Virus record (IMG/VR): IMGVR_UViG_2531839666_000019
Source of the DNA: a virus
Lineage: Duplodnaviria; Heunggongvirae; Uroviricota; Caudoviricetes
DNA: 38,533 nt
Strand: one strand, 5' to 3'
In this document: in pieces, positions 25,148-29,985 of the stretch
Layout of the letters: every line of letters begins with the position of its first letter
Numbering within the stretch: position 1 is the first letter of the stretch
Position numbers and translations under genes: made by a program
The notes under the pieces: model-generated
Database searches by the model: none
Told to the model about the DNA's origin: nothing
The model's input: the letters and a program-made list of their open reading frames with translations, nothing else

Positions 25148-25865
25148 AACTGCTGCCTCCCCATGTGAGATATCGCGGTGCCAGTTCGCGCAGGATGCGC
25201 TGCGGATAATGGCGGTTCTCCCGCCAGCTGGCCGCATTGCGTCCGGCATTCACCGTGGCGACATGTCCGAACCAGCGGGTGCTGTCCAGACCTTTCTGTG
25301 ATGCAAGCCGCCTGTCCCGTTGTACCCAGCCCAGACCACCGTTATAGCCTGACAGTGTCATGGCCATACGCTCGCAGTCGTTGGCGGCGCTGACGCGCTG
25401 CCACAGCCAGCGGTCATAGCTGACCAGCGCCCGGATGGCCCATGCCGGATTAAACGGCTCACGGCTGTTAAGTCCCGGCATCAGCTGACTTATCCAGTCG
25501 GCAGTGGCAGGCATGAACTGCGCCAGTCCCTGAGCACCAGCCGGCGAGACCGCATCAGGTCGCCAGCCGCTTTCCTGATGCAGTTGCGCGGCGAAATCTG
25601 CCACCGGCGCAGACAGTCCCCATTCAAGCCGGGCATTACGGATCACATCATCGCGATACTGCAGCGCAGCCTGCGGAGGCTGCGCTGCGCGGGCCTGACT
25701 GAAGAAGCCACCACACCAGAGCAGCCAGACAATCACCAGGTTGCCAGCAAGCTGCCACCAGAAGCTGTATTTATCGTTACGTGGTTCGCCGTGTCTGATG
25801 GCGGTTACGCCCAGACCAAAGGCGAACAGAATAATGAGGGTGATTTGAGGCCAGTTCATGGTCAC
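25131..25865 (-). CDS. endolysin, lytic transglycosylase (SLT domain) with N-terminal signal-anchor-like helix
   Basis: Motif AQLHQESGWRPDAVSPAGAQGLAQFMP (catalytic Glu-Ser); N-terminal hydrophobic ITLIILFAFGLGVTAI. Confidence 0.8.
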   Translation of the reverse strand: MTMNWPQITLIILFAFGLGVTAIRHGEPRNDKYSFWWQLAGNLVIVWLLWCGGFFSQARAAQPPQAALQYRDDVIRNARLEWGLSAPVADFAAQLHQESGWRPDAVSPAGAQGLAQFMPATADWISQLMPGLNSREPFNPAWAIRALVSYDRWLWQRVSAANDCERMAMTLSGYNGGLGWVQRDRRLASQKGLDSTRWFGHVATVNAGRNAASWRENRHYPQRILRELAPRYLTWGGSSCVASG

Positions 25866-26212
25866 AGTCCTGTTGCCACAGCCAGACAGACCGCTGCAAC
25901 AATCAGTGCACGGCGGATTAACGCAGCAGAAAATACAAGGTGAAGGCCGGTCTGCACAGGGAAACGCCCTTCAGCCATCAGCCTGTCTTCATGTTTCAGG
26001 TACTGACCGGGACGGGCTTTGGGGAAGAGCGAACGGTCAAGCCAGTAACCCAGCACTGCTGCCAGCGTGATGAGTGCCAGCTTGTAGATCACAACAGGCA
26101 ACTGCTGTGGCGAGACCAGAGCGATGGTGCCCAGCAACAGCACTGAGGTCAGCAGCCAGCCGCTGAGGCGAGGTTTTTTAACAGGGGGAATGAATTTTTT
26201 CAGGCTTTTCAT
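25862..26212 (-). CDS. holin-like membrane protein
   Basis: Three predicted TM helices; start trimmed to the ATG at 26212, which is preceded by AAGGAGA; ATGA overlap with the endolysin start. Confidence 0.6.
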   Translation of the reverse strand: MKSLKKFIPPVKKPRLSGWLLTSVLLLGTIALVSPQQLPVVIYKLALITLAAVLGYWLDRSLFPKARPGQYLKHEDRLMAEGRFPVQTGLHLVFSAALIRRALIVAAVCLAVATGL

Positions 26213-26342
26213 GTGTGTCTCCTTGTTTGGTGGAGACAGCATCACAAATGTGGCGGGATACGGATTTTAAAGCGCGTTATAAGTGTTCGCAGAGGGAAGC
26301 GACCAGAATGGTCGCACACAAAACATAGGGGAGGCAAGCACA

Positions 26343-26666
26343 ATGACTGAACCGAAACAGTCTGGTATTAAAAAAGGGTTCCTCTTTGGGAGCAGAATCG
26401 GAGAGCAGAATAAAACTTACACGCTAAGCTTGGATGCATGTTGTCCAACCGAAGCGATTATAGAGCTGAAAAACGTTCTGGTTGCACTTGAAGAGAGAAG
26501 AAGTCATTTCGCCAGCGGAGAAAACAACGTCATGCTAATTGGCGATGTGGCGGCGACATCACGATATAAAACCGCACCTAATCCTGCGATTCAGTTATCC
26601 TTCGACCAACGAATACTGGAAGCGGAATCAGCAGTTCCCAGAACGGTTCGTCCTCACCAGTCTTAA
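26343..26666 (+). CDS. hypothetical protein
   Basis: 107-aa ORF from the ATG at 26343, preceded by GGGGAGG; divergent from the late operon; overlaps the 3' end of the 26578-27153 gene, so one of the two may be shorter or spurious. Confidence 0.35.
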   Translation: MTEPKQSGIKKGFLFGSRIGEQNKTYTLSLDACCPTEAIIELKNVLVALEERRSHFASGENNVMLIGDVAATSRYKTAPNPAIQLSFDQRILEAESAVPRTVRPHQS

Positions 26667-27153
26667 CTGGGGCTGCTTCACCCGACCAGTAAAGCCAAGC
26701 ACGGTGATACAGTTCCAGCACCGGGCAATCACTGTTCAATAACCTCATATCTCCGCGATGCACCTGCTCATTTGTGATGACTTCATATATCGGTGCCGTT
26801 CTTATTTCGTCTTCGCCTCTCTCATCAGCCAGTAATTCCCTGAACTTCCTGACTTCACTCAGATGCTGACAGGCAAACAGTGACTGATAGCGGGAAGGTT
26901 TATCAGGAAAATGGCTACGGCGAACTAACTCAAACACCAGACCGACCAGCAGACTTCTGCTGATTCCACTGTCATCTTCCATTTTAGGGCCGGGGTTATA
27001 GAGATAGTTATACCCGTGACTCGAAAGGCCATTGGGATACATCTGATGAAGAAAAGCGGCCAGTTCTGGCATTTCAGGCTCGTATTTTCCGGTAATTACA
27101 TGACAAGGCGAAGGCAGACGACTAGCGGAATCAAGTGTGTAATACGTTCCCAT
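26578..27153 (-). CDS. hypothetical protein (accessory/cargo)
   Basis: 191-aa ORF with AAGGA upstream of the ATG; no recognisable motif. Confidence 0.45.
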   Translation of the reverse strand: MGTYYTLDSASRLPSPCHVITGKYEPEMPELAAFLHQMYPNGLSSHGYNYLYNPGPKMEDDSGISRSLLVGLVFELVRRSHFPDKPSRYQSLFACQHLSEVRKFRELLADERGEDEIRTAPIYEVITNEQVHRGDMRLLNSDCPVLELYHRAWLYWSGEAAPVKTGEDEPFWELLIPLPVFVGRRITESQD

Positions 27154-27561
27154 TCAGAAAACAATCCTTATCGAACAAACACTGCACGTAGGTAATGCAT
27201 CCAGTAAATCGCGTTAATAGAAATCATGTATCTCAAAACTTCACTCTGAACTCTGACAGTGAAAGAACGACCAGCCCGGTACCCGAACTCCGGGCTGGTC
27301 ATCGCCCCACAGGAATGCACTGTGAGCCGACCGAGGTTCAGTCAGTCTCGCGAGACCAGACTAGCCTGCCATATTTTTATAATTATAAAAGGGTTACAGA
27401 TTATGAAAATGCAGACATTCCCCATCGCTCCATGGATTGGTTGTAAACGCCGCCATGCCAGACATATTCTGGCCGATGTTTCCTAGCACGCACGAATATG
27501 AGGCAACTGACGAGAATAAATGATGCGTCAGAATGAACCGTCGACACCGTGATTTCAGGTT

Positions 27562-28173
27562 TCAAAAATCTGGAGAAGGTATATCTATCTGACCGACGTT
27601 TCGTAACCACATCTCTTGCTTTGTTTCTTTATTGGTTCGGGCGATATCATTAGCATTGTATCTGCATGTTTTAACCGCAACCTCACGAACTCGTGCTATA
27701 GGAGTATTTGTGTAGAATTTAAGATCTTCCTCTACCGCTCGTATGGCGATAAGCCCTCCACTCTGAAAACCGCTGGTTACTTTTAAAAGATCAACTCCTT
27801 GGTTATAAACGGCATTACATACGTTAGGGAACTCATCTTCTACAGTTTTGGGGATCATCAGCATATCAGGAAGACCCTGTAACACGTTATCTTCCTTTGG
27901 CCTCCATGCCCTTCCCAAAAAAGCTGTTATAGGTTGTGGTGTAGAAAGAAATGCCAATTCTATATAAAACAAACCACTGTAGTGATCGCGTAACGAATAG
28001 ACTAGTAAATGATCTTTTCCAGTTTTACTTGCATTGCTAAGTTTTATATCAAATGGTTTTTTCTGGTACTTAAGCAATCCATCAACTCCCGCATAATAAT
28101 GCTTTGAAACAGCAACAGAAAGTTGATGTACTTGGTTCGGATAATCTGTTCTATATCGTTTAATTAGCCCCAT
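27562..28173 (-). CDS. hypothetical protein, AT-rich cargo gene
   Basis: 203-aa ORF, visibly AT-richer than the phage backbone; no recognisable motif. Confidence 0.5.
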   Translation of the reverse strand: MGLIKRYRTDYPNQVHQLSVAVSKHYYAGVDGLLKYQKKPFDIKLSNASKTGKDHLLVYSLRDHYSGLFYIELAFLSTPQPITAFLGRAWRPKEDNVLQGLPDMLMIPKTVEDEFPNVCNAVYNQGVDLLKVTSGFQSGGLIAIRAVEEDLKFYTNTPIARVREVAVKTCRYNANDIARTNKETKQEMWLRNVGQIDIPSPDF

Positions 28174-28269: not shown

Positions 28270-28284
28270 GGTAATGACTCCAAC

Positions 28285-28788
28285 TTATTGATAGTGTTTT
28301 ATGTTCAGATAATGCCCGATGACTTTGTCATGCAGCTCCACCGATTTTGAGAACGACAGCGACTTCCGTCCCAGCCGTGCCAGGTGCTGCCTCAGATTCA
28401 GGTTATGCCGCTCAATTCGCTGCGTATATCGCTTGCTGATTACGTGCAGCTTTCCCTTCAGGCGGGATTCATACAGCGGCCAGCCATCCGTCATCCATAT
28501 CACCACGTCAAAGGGTGACAGCAGGCTCATAAGACGCCCCAGCGTCGCCATAGTGCGTTCACCGAATACGTGCGCAACAACCGTCTTCCGGAGCCTGTCA
28601 TACGCGTAAAACAGCCAGCGCTGGCGCGATTTAGCCCCGACATAGCCCCACTGTTCGTCCATTTCAGCGCAGACAATCACATCACTGCCCGGCTGTATGC
28701 GCGAAGTTACCGACTGCGGCCTGAGTTTTTTAAGTGACGTAAAGTCGTGTTGAGGCCAACGCCCATAATGCGGGCTGTTGCCCGGCAT
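28285..28788 (-). CDS. insB: IS1 InsB (transposase reading frame, normally expressed as InsAB by frameshift)
   Basis: 167-aa ORF matching IS1 InsB. Confidence 0.9.
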
Positions 28789-28982
28789 CCAACGCCATTC
28801 ATGGCCATATCAATGATTTTCTGGTACGTACCGGGTTGAGAAGCGGTGTAAGTGAACTGCAGTTGCCATGTTTTACGGCAGTGAGAGCAGAGATAGCGCT
28901 GATGTCCGGCGGTGCTTTTGCCGTTACGCACCACCCCGTCAGTAGCTGAACAGGAGGGACAGCTGATAGAAACAGAAGCCAC
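28707..28982 (-). CDS. insA: IS1 InsA
   Basis: 91-aa protein [40 protein letters not shown]. Confidence 0.95.
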
Positions 28983-29010
28983 TGGAGCACCTCAAAAACA
29001 CCATCATACA

Positions 29011-29985
29011 CTAAATCAGTAAGTTGGCAGCATCACCTTGTTGGTCAAGTAATAGAGCTCTACATGGGGCGGTCAAAACACGGGCATAACGACCATCGGG
29101 GTTTATGTTGATGTAACAAGTTTTCCCTTTAACACCATAAGATTCAGGTATTATTGCCTGTGTAGACACCGTGAATTTAAGGGTATGCCAGCCCGATTTT
29201 TGCTTGTAGCTTGAAACCGAATGGAAATCATCTGAGTACTTATTTAACCCTGGAAACATGCTGCGTAATGCTGGGATGGAATCTTCTATTATTTTGTCGT
29301 TGGTTTTAATGTTAAAAACGCTGGTTTCAGTAGATGCTACTGCTTTAGCATTTCCCCATTTACCAGCGAACACAATCATTCCCACGAAAAATATTGCGAC
29401 AAGAACTAACGCTCCCCCCAACACTACTACATGAGGCTTCCGGCTTCTGGTTGGTACAGTCGCGACTGATTTTGCCCCGCTGTCCGATGGAGGTGATAGA
29501 GTTTTACTCTCATCACGAATATTCAGCAGATCATCAAAATAACCAAACACAGCCTGCAACTGCTCTTTGTCCAGGCCTTTAAGATGGGTTGTACCGAAAT
29601 GCTTCAGACAGTATCTGTCACGGTCAAGACGATACCTAGGGTCAGTAAGCACCATTATTTTGCTGACCAGAAGATTACAGTCCTTCATATTCTGGATCTG
29701 TTGTGCATATCTCTGGAGGATCTCAACCGCACCATGATAATCAGCCGCAGTCATTTCATTAACTGTTTTGGTATTAAGTTTCGTGTGGATCGTCATCCAT
29801 AGTTCGCGCTTACTTTCCCCCAGATCAACCAATTCATCCATCAATCTGTGTAAATCGCGTTTTTGCAGCAACGAAATTGGTTGCTGGGCAGAGGGAAGTA
29901 TGTCAGCAGAATAGTTATGAATGGTAACATCACCGCTGACAACGTTACCCACATCTCCGTTAACTGTTTGCTTCTCTTTACTCAT
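29011..29985 (-). CDS. single-pass membrane protein co-transcribed with the repressor; 3' end replaced by IS1 sequence
   Basis: 324-aa ORF; N-terminal GDVGNVVSGDVTIHNY motif, TM helix VVVLGGALVLVAIFFVGMIVFAG; last 8 codons and stop lie inside IS1; without IS1 the frame would continue leftward to a stop near 28194. Confidence 0.6.
   Translation of the reverse strand: MSKEKQTVNGDVGNVVSGDVTIHNYSADILPSAQQPISLLQKRDLHRLMDELVDLGESKRELWMTIHTKLNTKTVNEMTAADYHGAVEILQRYAQQIQNMKDCNLLVSKIMVLTDPRYRLDRDRYCLKHFGTTHLKGLDKEQLQAVFGYFDDLLNIRDESKTLSPPSDSGAKSVATVPTRSRKPHVVVLGGALVLVAIFFVGMIVFAGKWGNAKAVASTETSVFNIKTNDKIIEDSIPALRSMFPGLNKYSDDFHSVSSYKQKSGWHTLKFTVSTQAIIPESYGVKGKTCYININPDGRYARVLTAPCRALLLDQQGDAANLLI
29038..29074. 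repeat. 37-bp direct repeat, right copy flanking IS1
   Basis: Identical to 28233-28269. Confidence 0.9.

What the first reader, a model, noticed from the sequence alone, without database searches (positions are those of the whole stretch)
26343..27153. Convergent gene pair overlapping by 89 bp beside the late promoter
A 107-aa plus-strand ORF (26343-26666, with a good ribosome-binding site) and a 191-aa minus-strand ORF (26578-27153) overlap at their 3' ends over 26578-26666. If both are real, their transcripts are mutually antisense over 89 bp, which could couple their expression. Otherwise one ORF is spurious or shorter than called.
Basis: seen in the sequence. Interest (0 to 1): 0.4.

Follow-up and report, generated by a model that had tools for sequence, protein, structure and literature searches.

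The report
Two real genes overlapping tail-to-tail
Both overlapping reading frames are real genes of a small accessory cassette in a Mu-like prophage, one an ADP-ribosyltransferase-fold protein and one a small, mostly unannotated partner; the 89-bp overlap looks like an accidental run-on of the small gene, not a designed dual-coding segment.

Summary
ORF 26343-26666 (+, 107 aa, GGGGAGG ribosome-binding site) and ORF 26578-27153 (-, 191 aa) share 89 bp at their 3' ends.

Both are real genes. The minus gene is a DUF2441/BC2332-like ADP-ribosyltransferase-fold protein under strong purifying selection. The plus gene has a conserved core of about 76 residues. It lies convergent to DUF2441 in many enterobacterial Mu-like prophages, and its third-codon-position divergence is typical of coding sequence. 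It is mostly left unannotated.

The two genes form a 968-bp cassette (about 26286-27253) that sister prophages lack. It sits next to the conserved region upstream of the holin gene.

The overlap itself is a by-product. In other lineages the small gene stops 4-20 nt before DUF2441 or overlaps it by only 7-11 nt. Here it has no stop after the core (...SRYK) and reads 31 more codons antisense through the conserved C-terminal strand of DUF2441, which carries invariant Glu173. That tail shows no constraint of its own: pN/pS is 3.7 in its frame and 0.11 in the DUF2441 frame. An open antisense frame of this length is common in DUF2441 genes.

No terminator separates the genes in any lineage. Antisense or transcriptional-interference coupling is therefore plausible but untested. 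The function of the pair is unknown. Interest is modest.

The parts
26286..27253 (.). Accessory (moron-like) cassette that carries both genes. It is absent from an otherwise collinear prophage, where about 24 unrelated bp stand in its place.
   Evidence: A BLAST of the FAM21845 prophage (L006) against the window shows homology ending at 26285 and resuming at 27254. Many E. coli prophages match only the flanks of the query.
26343..26666 (+). Small partner gene (107 aa). The conserved core is codons 1-76 (26343-26570), the non-conserved run-on tail is codons 77-107 (26571-26663), and the stop TAA is at 26664-26666.
   Evidence: The ORF appears. There are 16 homologs and 19 cluster representatives among 1.84 billion proteins. 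A convergent homolog lies next to DUF2441 in many loci. In the core, differences between lineages fall mostly on third codon positions, e.g. 15/14/44, with pN/pS 0.24-0.34. PGAP annotates it in E. coli 730V1 as WP_024160641.1.
26328..26334 (+). Shine-Dalgarno sequence GGGGAGG of the small gene, 8 nt upstream of the ATG.
   Evidence: Read directly from the sequence. It is invariant in the variants, and SD-like motifs precede the start in nearly all lineages.
26578..27153 (-). DUF2441 / BC2332-like ADP-ribosyltransferase-fold protein (191 aa).
26578..26666 (.). The 89-bp shared segment. It holds DUF2441 codons 163-191 plus the stop (C-terminal beta-strands with the PFWELLIPLP motif) and small-gene codons 79-107 plus the stop.
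   Evidence: pN/pS is 0.11 in the DUF2441 frame and 3.7 in the small-gene frame. Third-position variability of DUF2441 is not reduced here (5/29 vs 40/162, p=0.48).
26635..26637 (-). Codon of invariant Glu173 of DUF2441, the candidate catalytic glutamate of the ART fold. It lies inside the overlap.
   Evidence: Glu173 is invariant in a 25-sequence alignment that reaches down to 33% identity. It sits in strand 172-177 of the model. Its catalytic role is inferred, not shown.
26596..26598 (-). Ile186 codon ATA of DUF2441. The synonymous codons ATT or ATC would create TAA or TGA at codon 85 of the small gene and cut the overlap to 20 nt.
   Evidence: In synonymous resampling, 83% of resamples stop the plus frame at this point.
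26299..26315 (.). Perfect 7-bp inverted repeat GCGACCA-gaa-TGGTCGC at the left edge of the cassette, in the 5' leader of the small gene. On the minus strand it is a possible end point for DUF2441 transcripts.
   Evidence: RNA folding gives -11.1 to -11.8 kcal/mol, z -3.2 and -2.7. The repeat is imperfect in the 91%-identical variants. Its function is not established.
27269..27300 (.). Strong 11-bp GC-rich hairpin in the phage backbone just right of the cassette. It is also present at the empty site.
   Evidence: Folding gives -25 kcal/mol (plus strand) and -33 kcal/mol (minus strand), z -4.3 and -4.6. The scan flags it as terminator-like on the minus strand. It is conserved in L006 next to the junction.
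26213..26285 (.). Conserved backbone region between the holin start and the cassette, presumed to hold the late (lysis/head operon) promoter and possibly a rightward promoter.
   Evidence: It is nearly invariant in five prophages with different cargo. No sigma-70 consensus was detected. The promoter assignment is inferred.
25862..26212 (-). Holin gene, the first gene of the leftward lysis and morphogenesis operon (context).
   Evidence: Pfam Holin_2-3 at 1.5e-40. PGAP coordinates in B7A.

Best explanation
The two ORFs are both real genes of a 968-bp accessory cassette in a BcepMu-like transposable prophage of E. coli. The cassette sits between the conserved region upstream of the holin/late operon and the immunity region.

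The minus-strand gene encodes a DUF2441 (BC2332-like) ADP-ribosyltransferase-fold protein. The plus-strand gene encodes a small protein whose conserved part is about 76 residues long: a beta-hairpin, a helix and the motif FAEGENNVMxIGxVAATSRYK.

The tail-to-tail arrangement is conserved across enterobacterial prophages, but the junction is flexible. It ranges from a 20-nt gap to a 107-nt overlap. In this lineage the small gene has no stop after its core. It therefore runs on for 31 codons, 29 of them antisense to the DUF2441 segment that encodes the conserved C-terminal strands (PFWELLIPLP, invariant Glu173). It ends at a TAA formed opposite the Val163-Lys164 codons.

The overlapped DNA evolves under the DUF2441 constraint only, so the ORF overlap is a passive by-product and not a selected dual-coding device.

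The following points are inferred, not shown. No terminator lies between the genes in any lineage, so the two mRNAs must be complementary at their 3' ends or their polymerases must collide. That would give mutually antagonistic, excludon-like expression. The DUF2441 protein is probably an NAD-dependent modifying enzyme, and the small protein probably acts as its partner or regulator.
For: Both ORFs and the 89-bp overlap are present.

DUF2441 gene:
- It passes the Pfam cut-off and matches phrog_5663 over its full length.
- The family is placed in the ART clan or superfamily in the literature (PMC7955679; PMC3000352; PMC3024214).
- pN/pS is 0.13 outside the overlap and 0.11 inside it.
- The C-terminal motif, including E173, L175 and P177-P179, is invariant.

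Small gene:
- Homologs at 46-99% identity are found.
- A convergent homolog lies next to DUF2441 in lineages whose DUF2441 is only 35-68% identical, including a different Mu-like context directly after mor.
- In the core, differences concentrate on third codon positions (15/14/44, 17/11/40). pN/pS is 0.24-0.34, and amino-acid identity exceeds nucleotide identity.
- Shine-Dalgarno motifs are conserved.

Run-on nature of the tail:
- Homologs end at ...SRYKLHQ* with a 4-nt gap, or with 8- or 20-nt gaps, or with 7-11-nt overlaps.
- P0011 and P0016 stop at residues 82-83.
- pN/pS is 3.7 in the tail frame.
- DUF2441 third-position variability is not reduced in the overlap (p=0.48).
- The tail is disordered in the AF2 model.
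- The same antisense frame is open for at least 77 nt in about 21 of 31 unique DUF2441 genes, including most whose partner never enters it.

Cassette status: an empty site exists in L006.

No terminator or significant structure lies between or just after the stops.
Against: - Within the closest clade the core of the small gene is only weakly constrained. pN/pS is 0.45, the lowest of the six frames but not by much.
- Its AF2 model is poor (pLDDT 54), and no library or fold search gives it a family.
- In the window clade the frame stays open only because DUF2441 uses the rare Ile codon ATA. Resampling gives P=0.12-0.13 for an overlap this long, and the tail persists in three diverged lineages. 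Weak selection to keep the tail open cannot be excluded.
- No transcript, translation or activity data exist for either gene. The antisense coupling and any enzyme/partner relationship are inference only.
- DUF2441 occurs without this partner in Gordonia and Streptococcus phages. The partner occurs next to an unrelated 258-aa gene in Enterobacter. The functional link between the two is therefore not obligatory.
Confidence: 0.75

Rival explanations
1. The pair is a toxin-antidote or anti-phage defence (or counter-defence) module. DUF2441 would be an ADP-ribosylating toxin or effector, and the small protein its inhibitor or regulator. Convergent transcription would set the ratio of the two, as antisense RNAs do in type I toxin-antitoxin systems. 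This reading is compatible with the best explanation for the overlap but makes a stronger claim about function.
For: - The structural neighbours of the ART fold are dominated by toxin-antitoxin and polymorphic toxins: DarT, MbcT, Res, ParT, TreX, plus the anti-CRISPR AcrF11.
- H46 and E173 are invariant.
- The cassette sits at a variable cargo spot of the prophage where other phages carry Dam methylase, an HSDR_N protein and other cargo.
- The small convergent partner is conserved and broadly co-diverges with DUF2441.
- A lambdoid prophage pairs a 37%-identical DUF2441 with an unrelated 70-aa convergent gene at zero gap, which resembles antidote swapping.
Against: - There is no PADLOC or NCBIfam hit for either protein.
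- The genes are convergent, not a bicistronic operon.
- The partner has no known antitoxin domain.
- DUF2441 is solitary in Gordonia and Streptococcus phages.
- The partner survives without DUF2441 in L007.
- No toxicity or defence data exist.
Confidence: 0.2
2. The overlap is adaptive. Either the 29-31-residue tail of the small protein is itself functional, for example by contacting DUF2441, or the shared 89 bp are maintained to force RNA-RNA pairing of the two coding regions.
For: - The tail is kept in three lineages whose DUF2441 proteins are only 64-68% identical to the window's.
- In the window clade it depends on a rare ATA codon, and the resampling probability of an overlap this long is 0.12-0.13.
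Against: - pN/pS is 3.7 in the tail frame, and synonymous divergence of DUF2441 is not depressed in the overlap.
- The apparent conservation of the tail (AVPRTV) is the reverse complement of the invariant PFWEL motif of DUF2441.
- Many lineages lack the tail entirely.
- The resampling probability is about 0.5 in the two other tail-bearing lineages, and the frame is open in most tail-less lineages too.
- The tail is predicted to be disordered.
Confidence: 0.1
3. The plus-strand ORF is not a gene. In this view the 332 bp between the holin and DUF2441 genes are a regulatory or untranslated region, and the ORF is a chance open frame.
For: - PGAP leaves it unannotated in almost all E. coli genomes shown, and the KP12 record does the same.
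- No HMM library recognises it.
- The window is rich in spurious long ORFs.
- Constraint is weak within the closest clade.
Against: - An intact homologous ORF with a conserved start and Shine-Dalgarno motif is present in about 20 unique loci whose DNA is only 58-69% identical.
- Third-position-biased divergence gives pN/pS 0.24-0.34.
- Domain fusions contain the same core (P0046, P0058, P0060).
- PGAP and other pipelines do call it in some genomes.
Confidence: 0.04

Closest known systems
Excludons and noncontiguous operons (overlapping transcription of convergent genes without an intervening terminator; Toledo-Arana & Lasa 2020, PMC7154746; ExcludonFinder 2025, PMC12288877)
   Same: The genes are convergent with no terminator between them, so each mRNA must extend antisense into the other. 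In the KP12/CFSAN-type prophages the order is small gene (+), DUF2441 (-), dam (+). That resembles a noncontiguous operon with an interspersed opposite-strand gene.
   Different: Excludons are defined by measured overlapping transcripts and reciprocal expression, and neither was measurable here. In classical cases the overlap lies in UTRs. Here the coding regions themselves overlap in this lineage.
DUF2441 / BC2332-like family of the ADP-ribosyltransferase superfamily (Pfam PF10386; PDB 2aua; SCOP d.166.1.6)
   Different: No member of the family has a demonstrated activity or target. The enterobacterial prophage subgroup has its own conserved C-terminal PFWELLIPLP strand and a convergent small partner. 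The Gordonia and Streptococcus phage homologs examined here lack that partner. The partner status of Bacillus BC2332 was not checked.
C-terminal overprinting: extension of one gene into its convergent neighbour after loss of its stop codon
   Same: One reading frame (DUF2441) is ancient and constrained. The other frame in the shared segment is young, unconstrained, predicted to be disordered and lineage-specific.
   Different: There is no sign that the overprinted tail has acquired a function. It appears to be a neutral run-on whose length is set by where the first antisense stop happens to fall.
ART-type toxin-antitoxin systems (DarTG, ParST/RES-Xre, MbcTA) and type I toxin-antitoxin systems with 3'-overlapping antisense RNAs
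   Same: An ART-fold protein is paired with a small adjacent gene on a mobile element, and the partners converge at their 3' ends as in txpA/RatA-type loci. The latter comparison rests on my own knowledge, and only fold similarity was tested.
   Different: The pair is not a co-directional operon. The partner has no macro, Xre or other known antitoxin domain. DUF2441 is a 191-aa soluble protein, not a small membrane peptide. Co-occurrence is not obligatory.

Membership tests
Convergent overlapping protein-coding gene pair | Two ORFs on opposite strands share nucleotides at their 3' ends | tested here: met
   The ORFs 26343-26666 (+) and 26578-27153 (-) share 89 bp.
Convergent overlapping protein-coding gene pair | Both ORFs are conserved as proteins | tested here: met
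   DUF2441 has pN/pS 0.13 and homologs down to 33% identity. The small-gene core has pN/pS 0.24-0.34 with third-position-biased divergence across lineages.
Convergent overlapping protein-coding gene pair | Both frames are under selection inside the shared segment (true dual coding) | tested here: not met
   In the overlap, pN/pS is 0.11 for DUF2441 and 3.7 for the small gene. DUF2441 third positions are not more conserved there (p=0.48). Many homologs lack the tail.
DUF2441 / BC2332-like ART-fold family (PF10386) | Sequence match above the Pfam gathering score | tested here: met
   31.8 bits against a cut-off of 25, E=1.7e-7. A profile hit to 2aua gives E=1e-11.
DUF2441 / BC2332-like ART-fold family (PF10386) | Same fold as the solved member 2aua | tested here: met
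DUF2441 / BC2332-like ART-fold family (PF10386) | Conserved catalytic-type residues of ADP-ribosyltransferases (H-Y-E or R-S-E) in the NAD pocket | tested here: inconclusive
   H46 (SxHG), R88, Y155 and E173 are invariant, and ProFunc matched 2aua to the diphtheria-toxin active site (PMC3024214). I did not map these residues onto an NAD pocket.
DUF2441 / BC2332-like ART-fold family (PF10386) | NAD-dependent ADP-ribosyl transfer activity | not testable with these tools
   No biochemical data were found for any family member.
Excludon / overlapping-transcription unit | Convergent genes without a transcriptional terminator between them | tested here: met
   The ORFs overlap. No terminator-like site or significant hairpin lies after either stop until 26299-26315 (minus strand) or 27269-27300. 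Gaps are 20 nt or less in the related lineages.
Excludon / overlapping-transcription unit | Experimentally observed overlapping transcripts with reciprocal expression | not testable with these tools
   No RNA data are available for this prophage.
Type II toxin-antitoxin system with ART toxin (DarTG, RES-Xre, MbcTA) | Co-directional two-gene operon | tested here: not met
   The genes are convergent in every locus examined.
Type II toxin-antitoxin system with ART toxin (DarTG, RES-Xre, MbcTA) | Partner carries a recognised antitoxin domain | tested here: not met
Type II toxin-antitoxin system with ART toxin (DarTG, RES-Xre, MbcTA) | Obligatory co-occurrence of the two genes | tested here: not met
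   DUF2441 occurs without this partner in Gordonia and Streptococcus phages and with unrelated small genes in L062 and L064. The partner occurs next to an unrelated 258-aa gene in L007.
Phage moron / accessory cassette | Presence/absence polymorphism at a fixed position of otherwise collinear phage genomes | tested here: met
   An empty site exists in L006 and other cargo occupies the position in L005 and L007.
Phage moron / accessory cassette | Own promoter and terminator | tested here: inconclusive
   No sigma-70 consensus lies inside the cassette. Hairpins sit at 26299-26315 and 27269-27300, but neither has a canonical U-tract.

The most novel reading that the evidence does not exclude
The DUF2441 ADP-ribosyltransferase-fold protein and its small convergent partner form a previously undescribed two-gene effector/regulator module of temperate phages, acting in defence, counter-defence or host modification. 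Its expression would be balanced by head-on transcription rather than by an operon. The small, mostly unannotated protein would be the cognate inhibitor or specificity factor.
Probability: 0.2. Interest if true: 0.6.

Novelty: new member of a known kind. Interest (0 to 1): 0.3.

Why it matters
The practical result is an annotation correction. A conserved small gene next to DUF2441 is missing from most public annotations of these prophages, including the phage KP12 record and nearly all the E. coli RefSeq genomes examined.

The locus is also a clean natural example of how a coding overlap arises passively. A gene loses its stop codon, and the antisense frame of its neighbour happens to be open. 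A single synonymous codon (Ile186 ATA) decides the length of the overlap.

If the pair proves to be a functional module, it would give a first biological handle on DUF2441/BC2332-like ART-fold proteins, which have had a solved structure since 2005 but no known activity. It would also be a compact test case for regulation by convergent transcription in a prophage.

Tried and rejected
- HMM libraries: Pfam, PHROGs, PADLOC and NCBIfam gave nothing for the small protein, and nothing beyond DUF2441/phrog_5663 for the large one.
- Rfam scan of 25800-27700: the only hit is a sub-threshold snoRNA match, which is chance.
- Promoter and terminator scan: the counts equal the shuffle expectation, and nothing lies between the genes.
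- 258-aa convergent gene in Enterobacter (L007): I tested whether it is a hidden DUF2441 relative. It is not (BLASTP E=0.97, HMM score -1.5 bits).
- Representative search with the small-protein profile: it found only 19 clusters and no link to a named family. The fusion proteins had no informative Pfam domains.
- Literature searches for DUF2441, BC2332 and PF10386: they returned only fold-classification mentions and no functional work.
- Selection on the overlap: I considered that the rare ATA codon and the persistence of the tail in three lineages indicate selection for the overlap. I rejected this as the main reading after seeing that the same antisense frame is open in most DUF2441 genes whose partner never uses it.

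Full report
**Observation.** One search lists a plus-strand ORF 26283-26666. Its ATG at 26343 gives 107 aa. One search also lists a minus-strand ORF 26578-27153 of 191 aa. They share 26578-26666, which is 89 bp. The plus ORF has a GGGGAGG Shine-Dalgarno sequence at 26328-26334, 8 nt before the ATG. The description is accurate.

**Context.**
- The window is a Mu-like, BcepMu-type transposable prophage of E. coli.
- Segment 26200-27300 is 100% identical to the chromosomes of strain B7A and many other strains. It is 91% identical to Klebsiella phage KP12 and to some other E. coli strains.
- To the left, on the minus strand, lie holin (25862-26212), an SLT lysin, spanin-like genes, terminase, and portal and head genes.
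- To the right lie a repressor-like HTH gene, then the plus-strand early genes: ner-like, a DDE transposase and an ExeA-type ATPase.

**The minus-strand gene is real.**
- It passes the Pfam cut-off for DUF2441 (31.8 vs 25 bits) and matches phrog_5663 end to end (2e-65).
- PGAP annotates it in every E. coli hit.
- Twenty-seven homologs cover 96-99% of it in all but a few truncated sequences.
- The alignment shows invariant Y4, D8, S44, H46, G47, E75, R78, R88, D135, Y155, W156, E173, L175 and P177-P179.
- AlphaFold gives pLDDT 89.
- The literature places DUF2441/BC2332 in the ART clan or superfamily and reports a ProFunc active-site match to diphtheria toxin (PMC7955679; PMC3000352; PMC3024214). 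No activity has been shown for any member.

**The plus-strand gene is also real.**
- It has 16 homologs. Most are 107-109 aa at 72-99% identity. Two divergent ones come from Symbiopectobacterium (56%) and Enterobacter (50%).
- A profile search of 1.84 billion representatives finds only 19 clusters, so the family is small.
- PGAP calls it in E. coli 730V1 as WP_024160641.1. It does not call it in the other E. coli genomes listed, and the KP12 record lacks it too.
- I collected DUF2441 loci from genomes and viral contigs and scripted a search for convergent ORFs at the DUF2441 3' end. A homologous small ORF sits tail-to-tail with DUF2441 in lineages whose DUF2441 is 35-100% identical to the window's. 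One of these is a different Mu-like phage, where the small ORF directly follows mor.
- The conserved core is G(F)LFGI..GEKNKxYTLSV.A....EAI.ELK.AL.ALE...S.FAEGENNVM.IG.VAATSRYK.
- In the 66-codon core, differences between lineages fall mainly on third positions. Window vs L055 gives 15/14/44, and window vs L028 gives 17/11/40. pN/pS is 0.24-0.34, and amino-acid identity can exceed nucleotide identity.
- SD-like motifs precede the start in nearly all lineages.
- Within the closest clade the constraint is weaker. pN/pS is 0.45, still the lowest of the six frames.

**What the overlap is.** The tail-to-tail junction varies between lineages.

| Lineage | Junction |
|---|---|
| Window clade | 89-nt overlap |
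| KP12/CFSAN type (DUF2441 stops 9 nt earlier) | 80-nt overlap |
| L010, L014 | 77-nt overlap |
| L028, L060 | 107-nt overlap |
| L019-L021 | 7-11-nt overlap |
| L053-L057 (the protein ends ...SRYKLHQ*) | 4-nt gap |
| L029 | 8-nt gap |
| L015 type | 20-nt gap |
| Lambdoid prophage L062 (unrelated small convergent gene) | 0-nt gap |
| L064 (different small gene) | 68-nt gap |

- In the window the conserved core ends at K76 (26568-26570). There is no stop there, so the frame continues for 31 codons to TAA at 26664-26666. That stop lies opposite DUF2441 codons V163 (GTT) and K164 (AAG), in a variable, lower-confidence loop.
- The tail therefore runs antisense through the DUF2441 C-terminal strands, including the invariant E173 codon (26635-26637).
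- The apparent conservation of the tail (AVPRTV) is simply the reverse complement of the invariant PFWEL motif.
- In the overlap, pN/pS is 0.11 in the DUF2441 frame and 3.7 in the small-gene frame.
- DUF2441 third positions vary as often inside the overlap (5/29) as outside it (40/162), Fisher p=0.48.
- The tail is disordered in the model.
- Two homologs stop at residues 82-83.

**Is the overlap more than chance?**
- Under synonymous resampling of DUF2441, 83% of resamples stop the plus frame 20 nt into the overlap. Ile186-Thr187 encoded as ATT/ATC-ACN creates TAA or TGA on the other strand. The gene uses the rare ATA codon, and P(overlap of 89 nt or more) is 0.12.
- This could hint at selection. 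But the probability is about 0.5 in the other two tail-bearing lineages.
- The same antisense frame is open for at least 77 nt in about 21 of 31 unique DUF2441 genes, including most whose partner stops before entering.
- I therefore read the overlap as a passive run-on. I give about 10% to the alternative that it is maintained by selection.

**The cassette.**
- Aligning prophages with other cargo shows the backbone is nearly invariant from the holin start to 26285 and then diverges.
- In E. coli FAM21845 (L006), homology stops at 26285 and resumes at 27254. Both genes therefore sit in a 968-bp insertion/deletion cassette.
- The cassette begins about 57 nt before the small gene's ATG. Its left part holds a perfect inverted repeat at 26299-26315 (about -11 kcal/mol, z about -3).
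- Just outside its right end lies a strong backbone hairpin at 27269-27300 (-25/-33 kcal/mol, z below -4), which is also present at the empty site.
- No terminator-like site lies between the genes or immediately after either stop.
- In KP12-type phages the order is small gene (+), DUF2441 (-), dam (+). DUF2441 is thus embedded head-on between two rightward-oriented genes.

**How it most likely works.**
- Shown: there are two conserved genes in a conserved convergent arrangement, with no intervening terminator, and the overlap is unconstrained in the small gene's frame.
- Inferred: each mRNA extends antisense into the other gene, so expression is mutually antagonistic through polymerase collision or RNase III cleavage of the duplex. 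This is the excludon or noncontiguous-operon model (PMC7154746; PMC12288877).
- Also inferred: the DUF2441 protein is an NAD-utilising modifying enzyme, and the small protein is its partner or regulator.
- A toxin-antidote or defence role is possible (about 20%). Several points argue against it: the lack of PADLOC hits, the convergent layout, solitary DUF2441 genes in Gordonia and Streptococcus phages, and a partner gene that persists next to an unrelated 258-aa gene in Enterobacter.

**Verdict.**
- Both genes are real, and the small one is an under-annotated gene.
- The 89-bp coding overlap is an evolutionary by-product.
- Antisense coupling is plausible but untested.
- This is a new member of known kinds (convergent gene overlap; DUF2441 family) and is of modest interest. 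It has some upside if the pair proves to be a functional ART-based module.

Noticed in passing
window 27404-27483 (+): Only the first ~27 codons of a DNA adenine methylase (dam) gene remain (MKMQTFPIAPWIGCKRRHARHIL...). Homology to the KP12/CFSAN-type prophages, which carry a full 256-aa dam here, ends at 27483. Different cargo follows, starting with a 203-aa gene on the minus strand.
   Followed up: partly
window 28270-29037: An insertion of about 768 bp relative to the otherwise 99.9%-identical B7A prophage. It carries IS1 insB-like and insA-like ORFs (28285-28788, 28707-28982) and interrupts the 3' part of a 328-aa hypothetical gene.
   Followed up: partly
window 27562-28173 (-): A 203-aa ORF, annotated as hypothetical in B7A, has no hit in Pfam, PHROGs, PADLOC or NCBIfam. 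It is another uncharacterised cargo gene between the cassette and the repressor.
   Followed up: partly
window 27269-27300: A strong 11-bp GC-rich hairpin in the phage backbone lies at the right border of the cassette and is also present at the empty site of L006. It sits between divergent genes in KP12-type phages, so it is not an obvious terminator. It may mark a recombination or regulatory site.
   Followed up: partly
L007 4001-4252 (+) and 4255-5031 (-): In an Enterobacter cloacae prophage the small gene is a chimera. Its first 30 codons are identical to the KP12 type and the rest is of the L015 type, with the switch at the conserved YTLSV motif. It converges at a 2-nt gap on an unrelated 258-aa gene with no family.
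   Followed up: partly
P0058, P0060, P0046 (proteins): The core of the small protein also occurs fused to other sequence. It forms the C-terminal domain of 230-243-aa proteins whose N-terminus matches the 98-aa convergent gene of L064. It also forms the N-terminal domain of a 189-aa protein with an unrelated C-terminal extension.
   Followed up: no
L001 (GenBank OM835952.1, Klebsiella phage KP12 clone KP12_2): The record is classified under Vequintavirinae, but its gene content is Mu-like: transposase, Mu gp29-like and Mu-type virion morphogenesis genes. It is collinear with this prophage, so it is probably a co-purified transposable prophage and not part of a Vequintavirus.
   Followed up: no
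L062 5001-5729: In a lambdoid Enterobacter hormaechei prophage, between the small terminase subunit gene and the lysis cassette, a 37%-identical DUF2441 gene abuts an unrelated 70-aa convergent gene with zero gap. The same small-gene type occurs in L040 and L041. Small convergent partners of different families may be a general feature of enterobacterial DUF2441 genes.
   Followed up: partly
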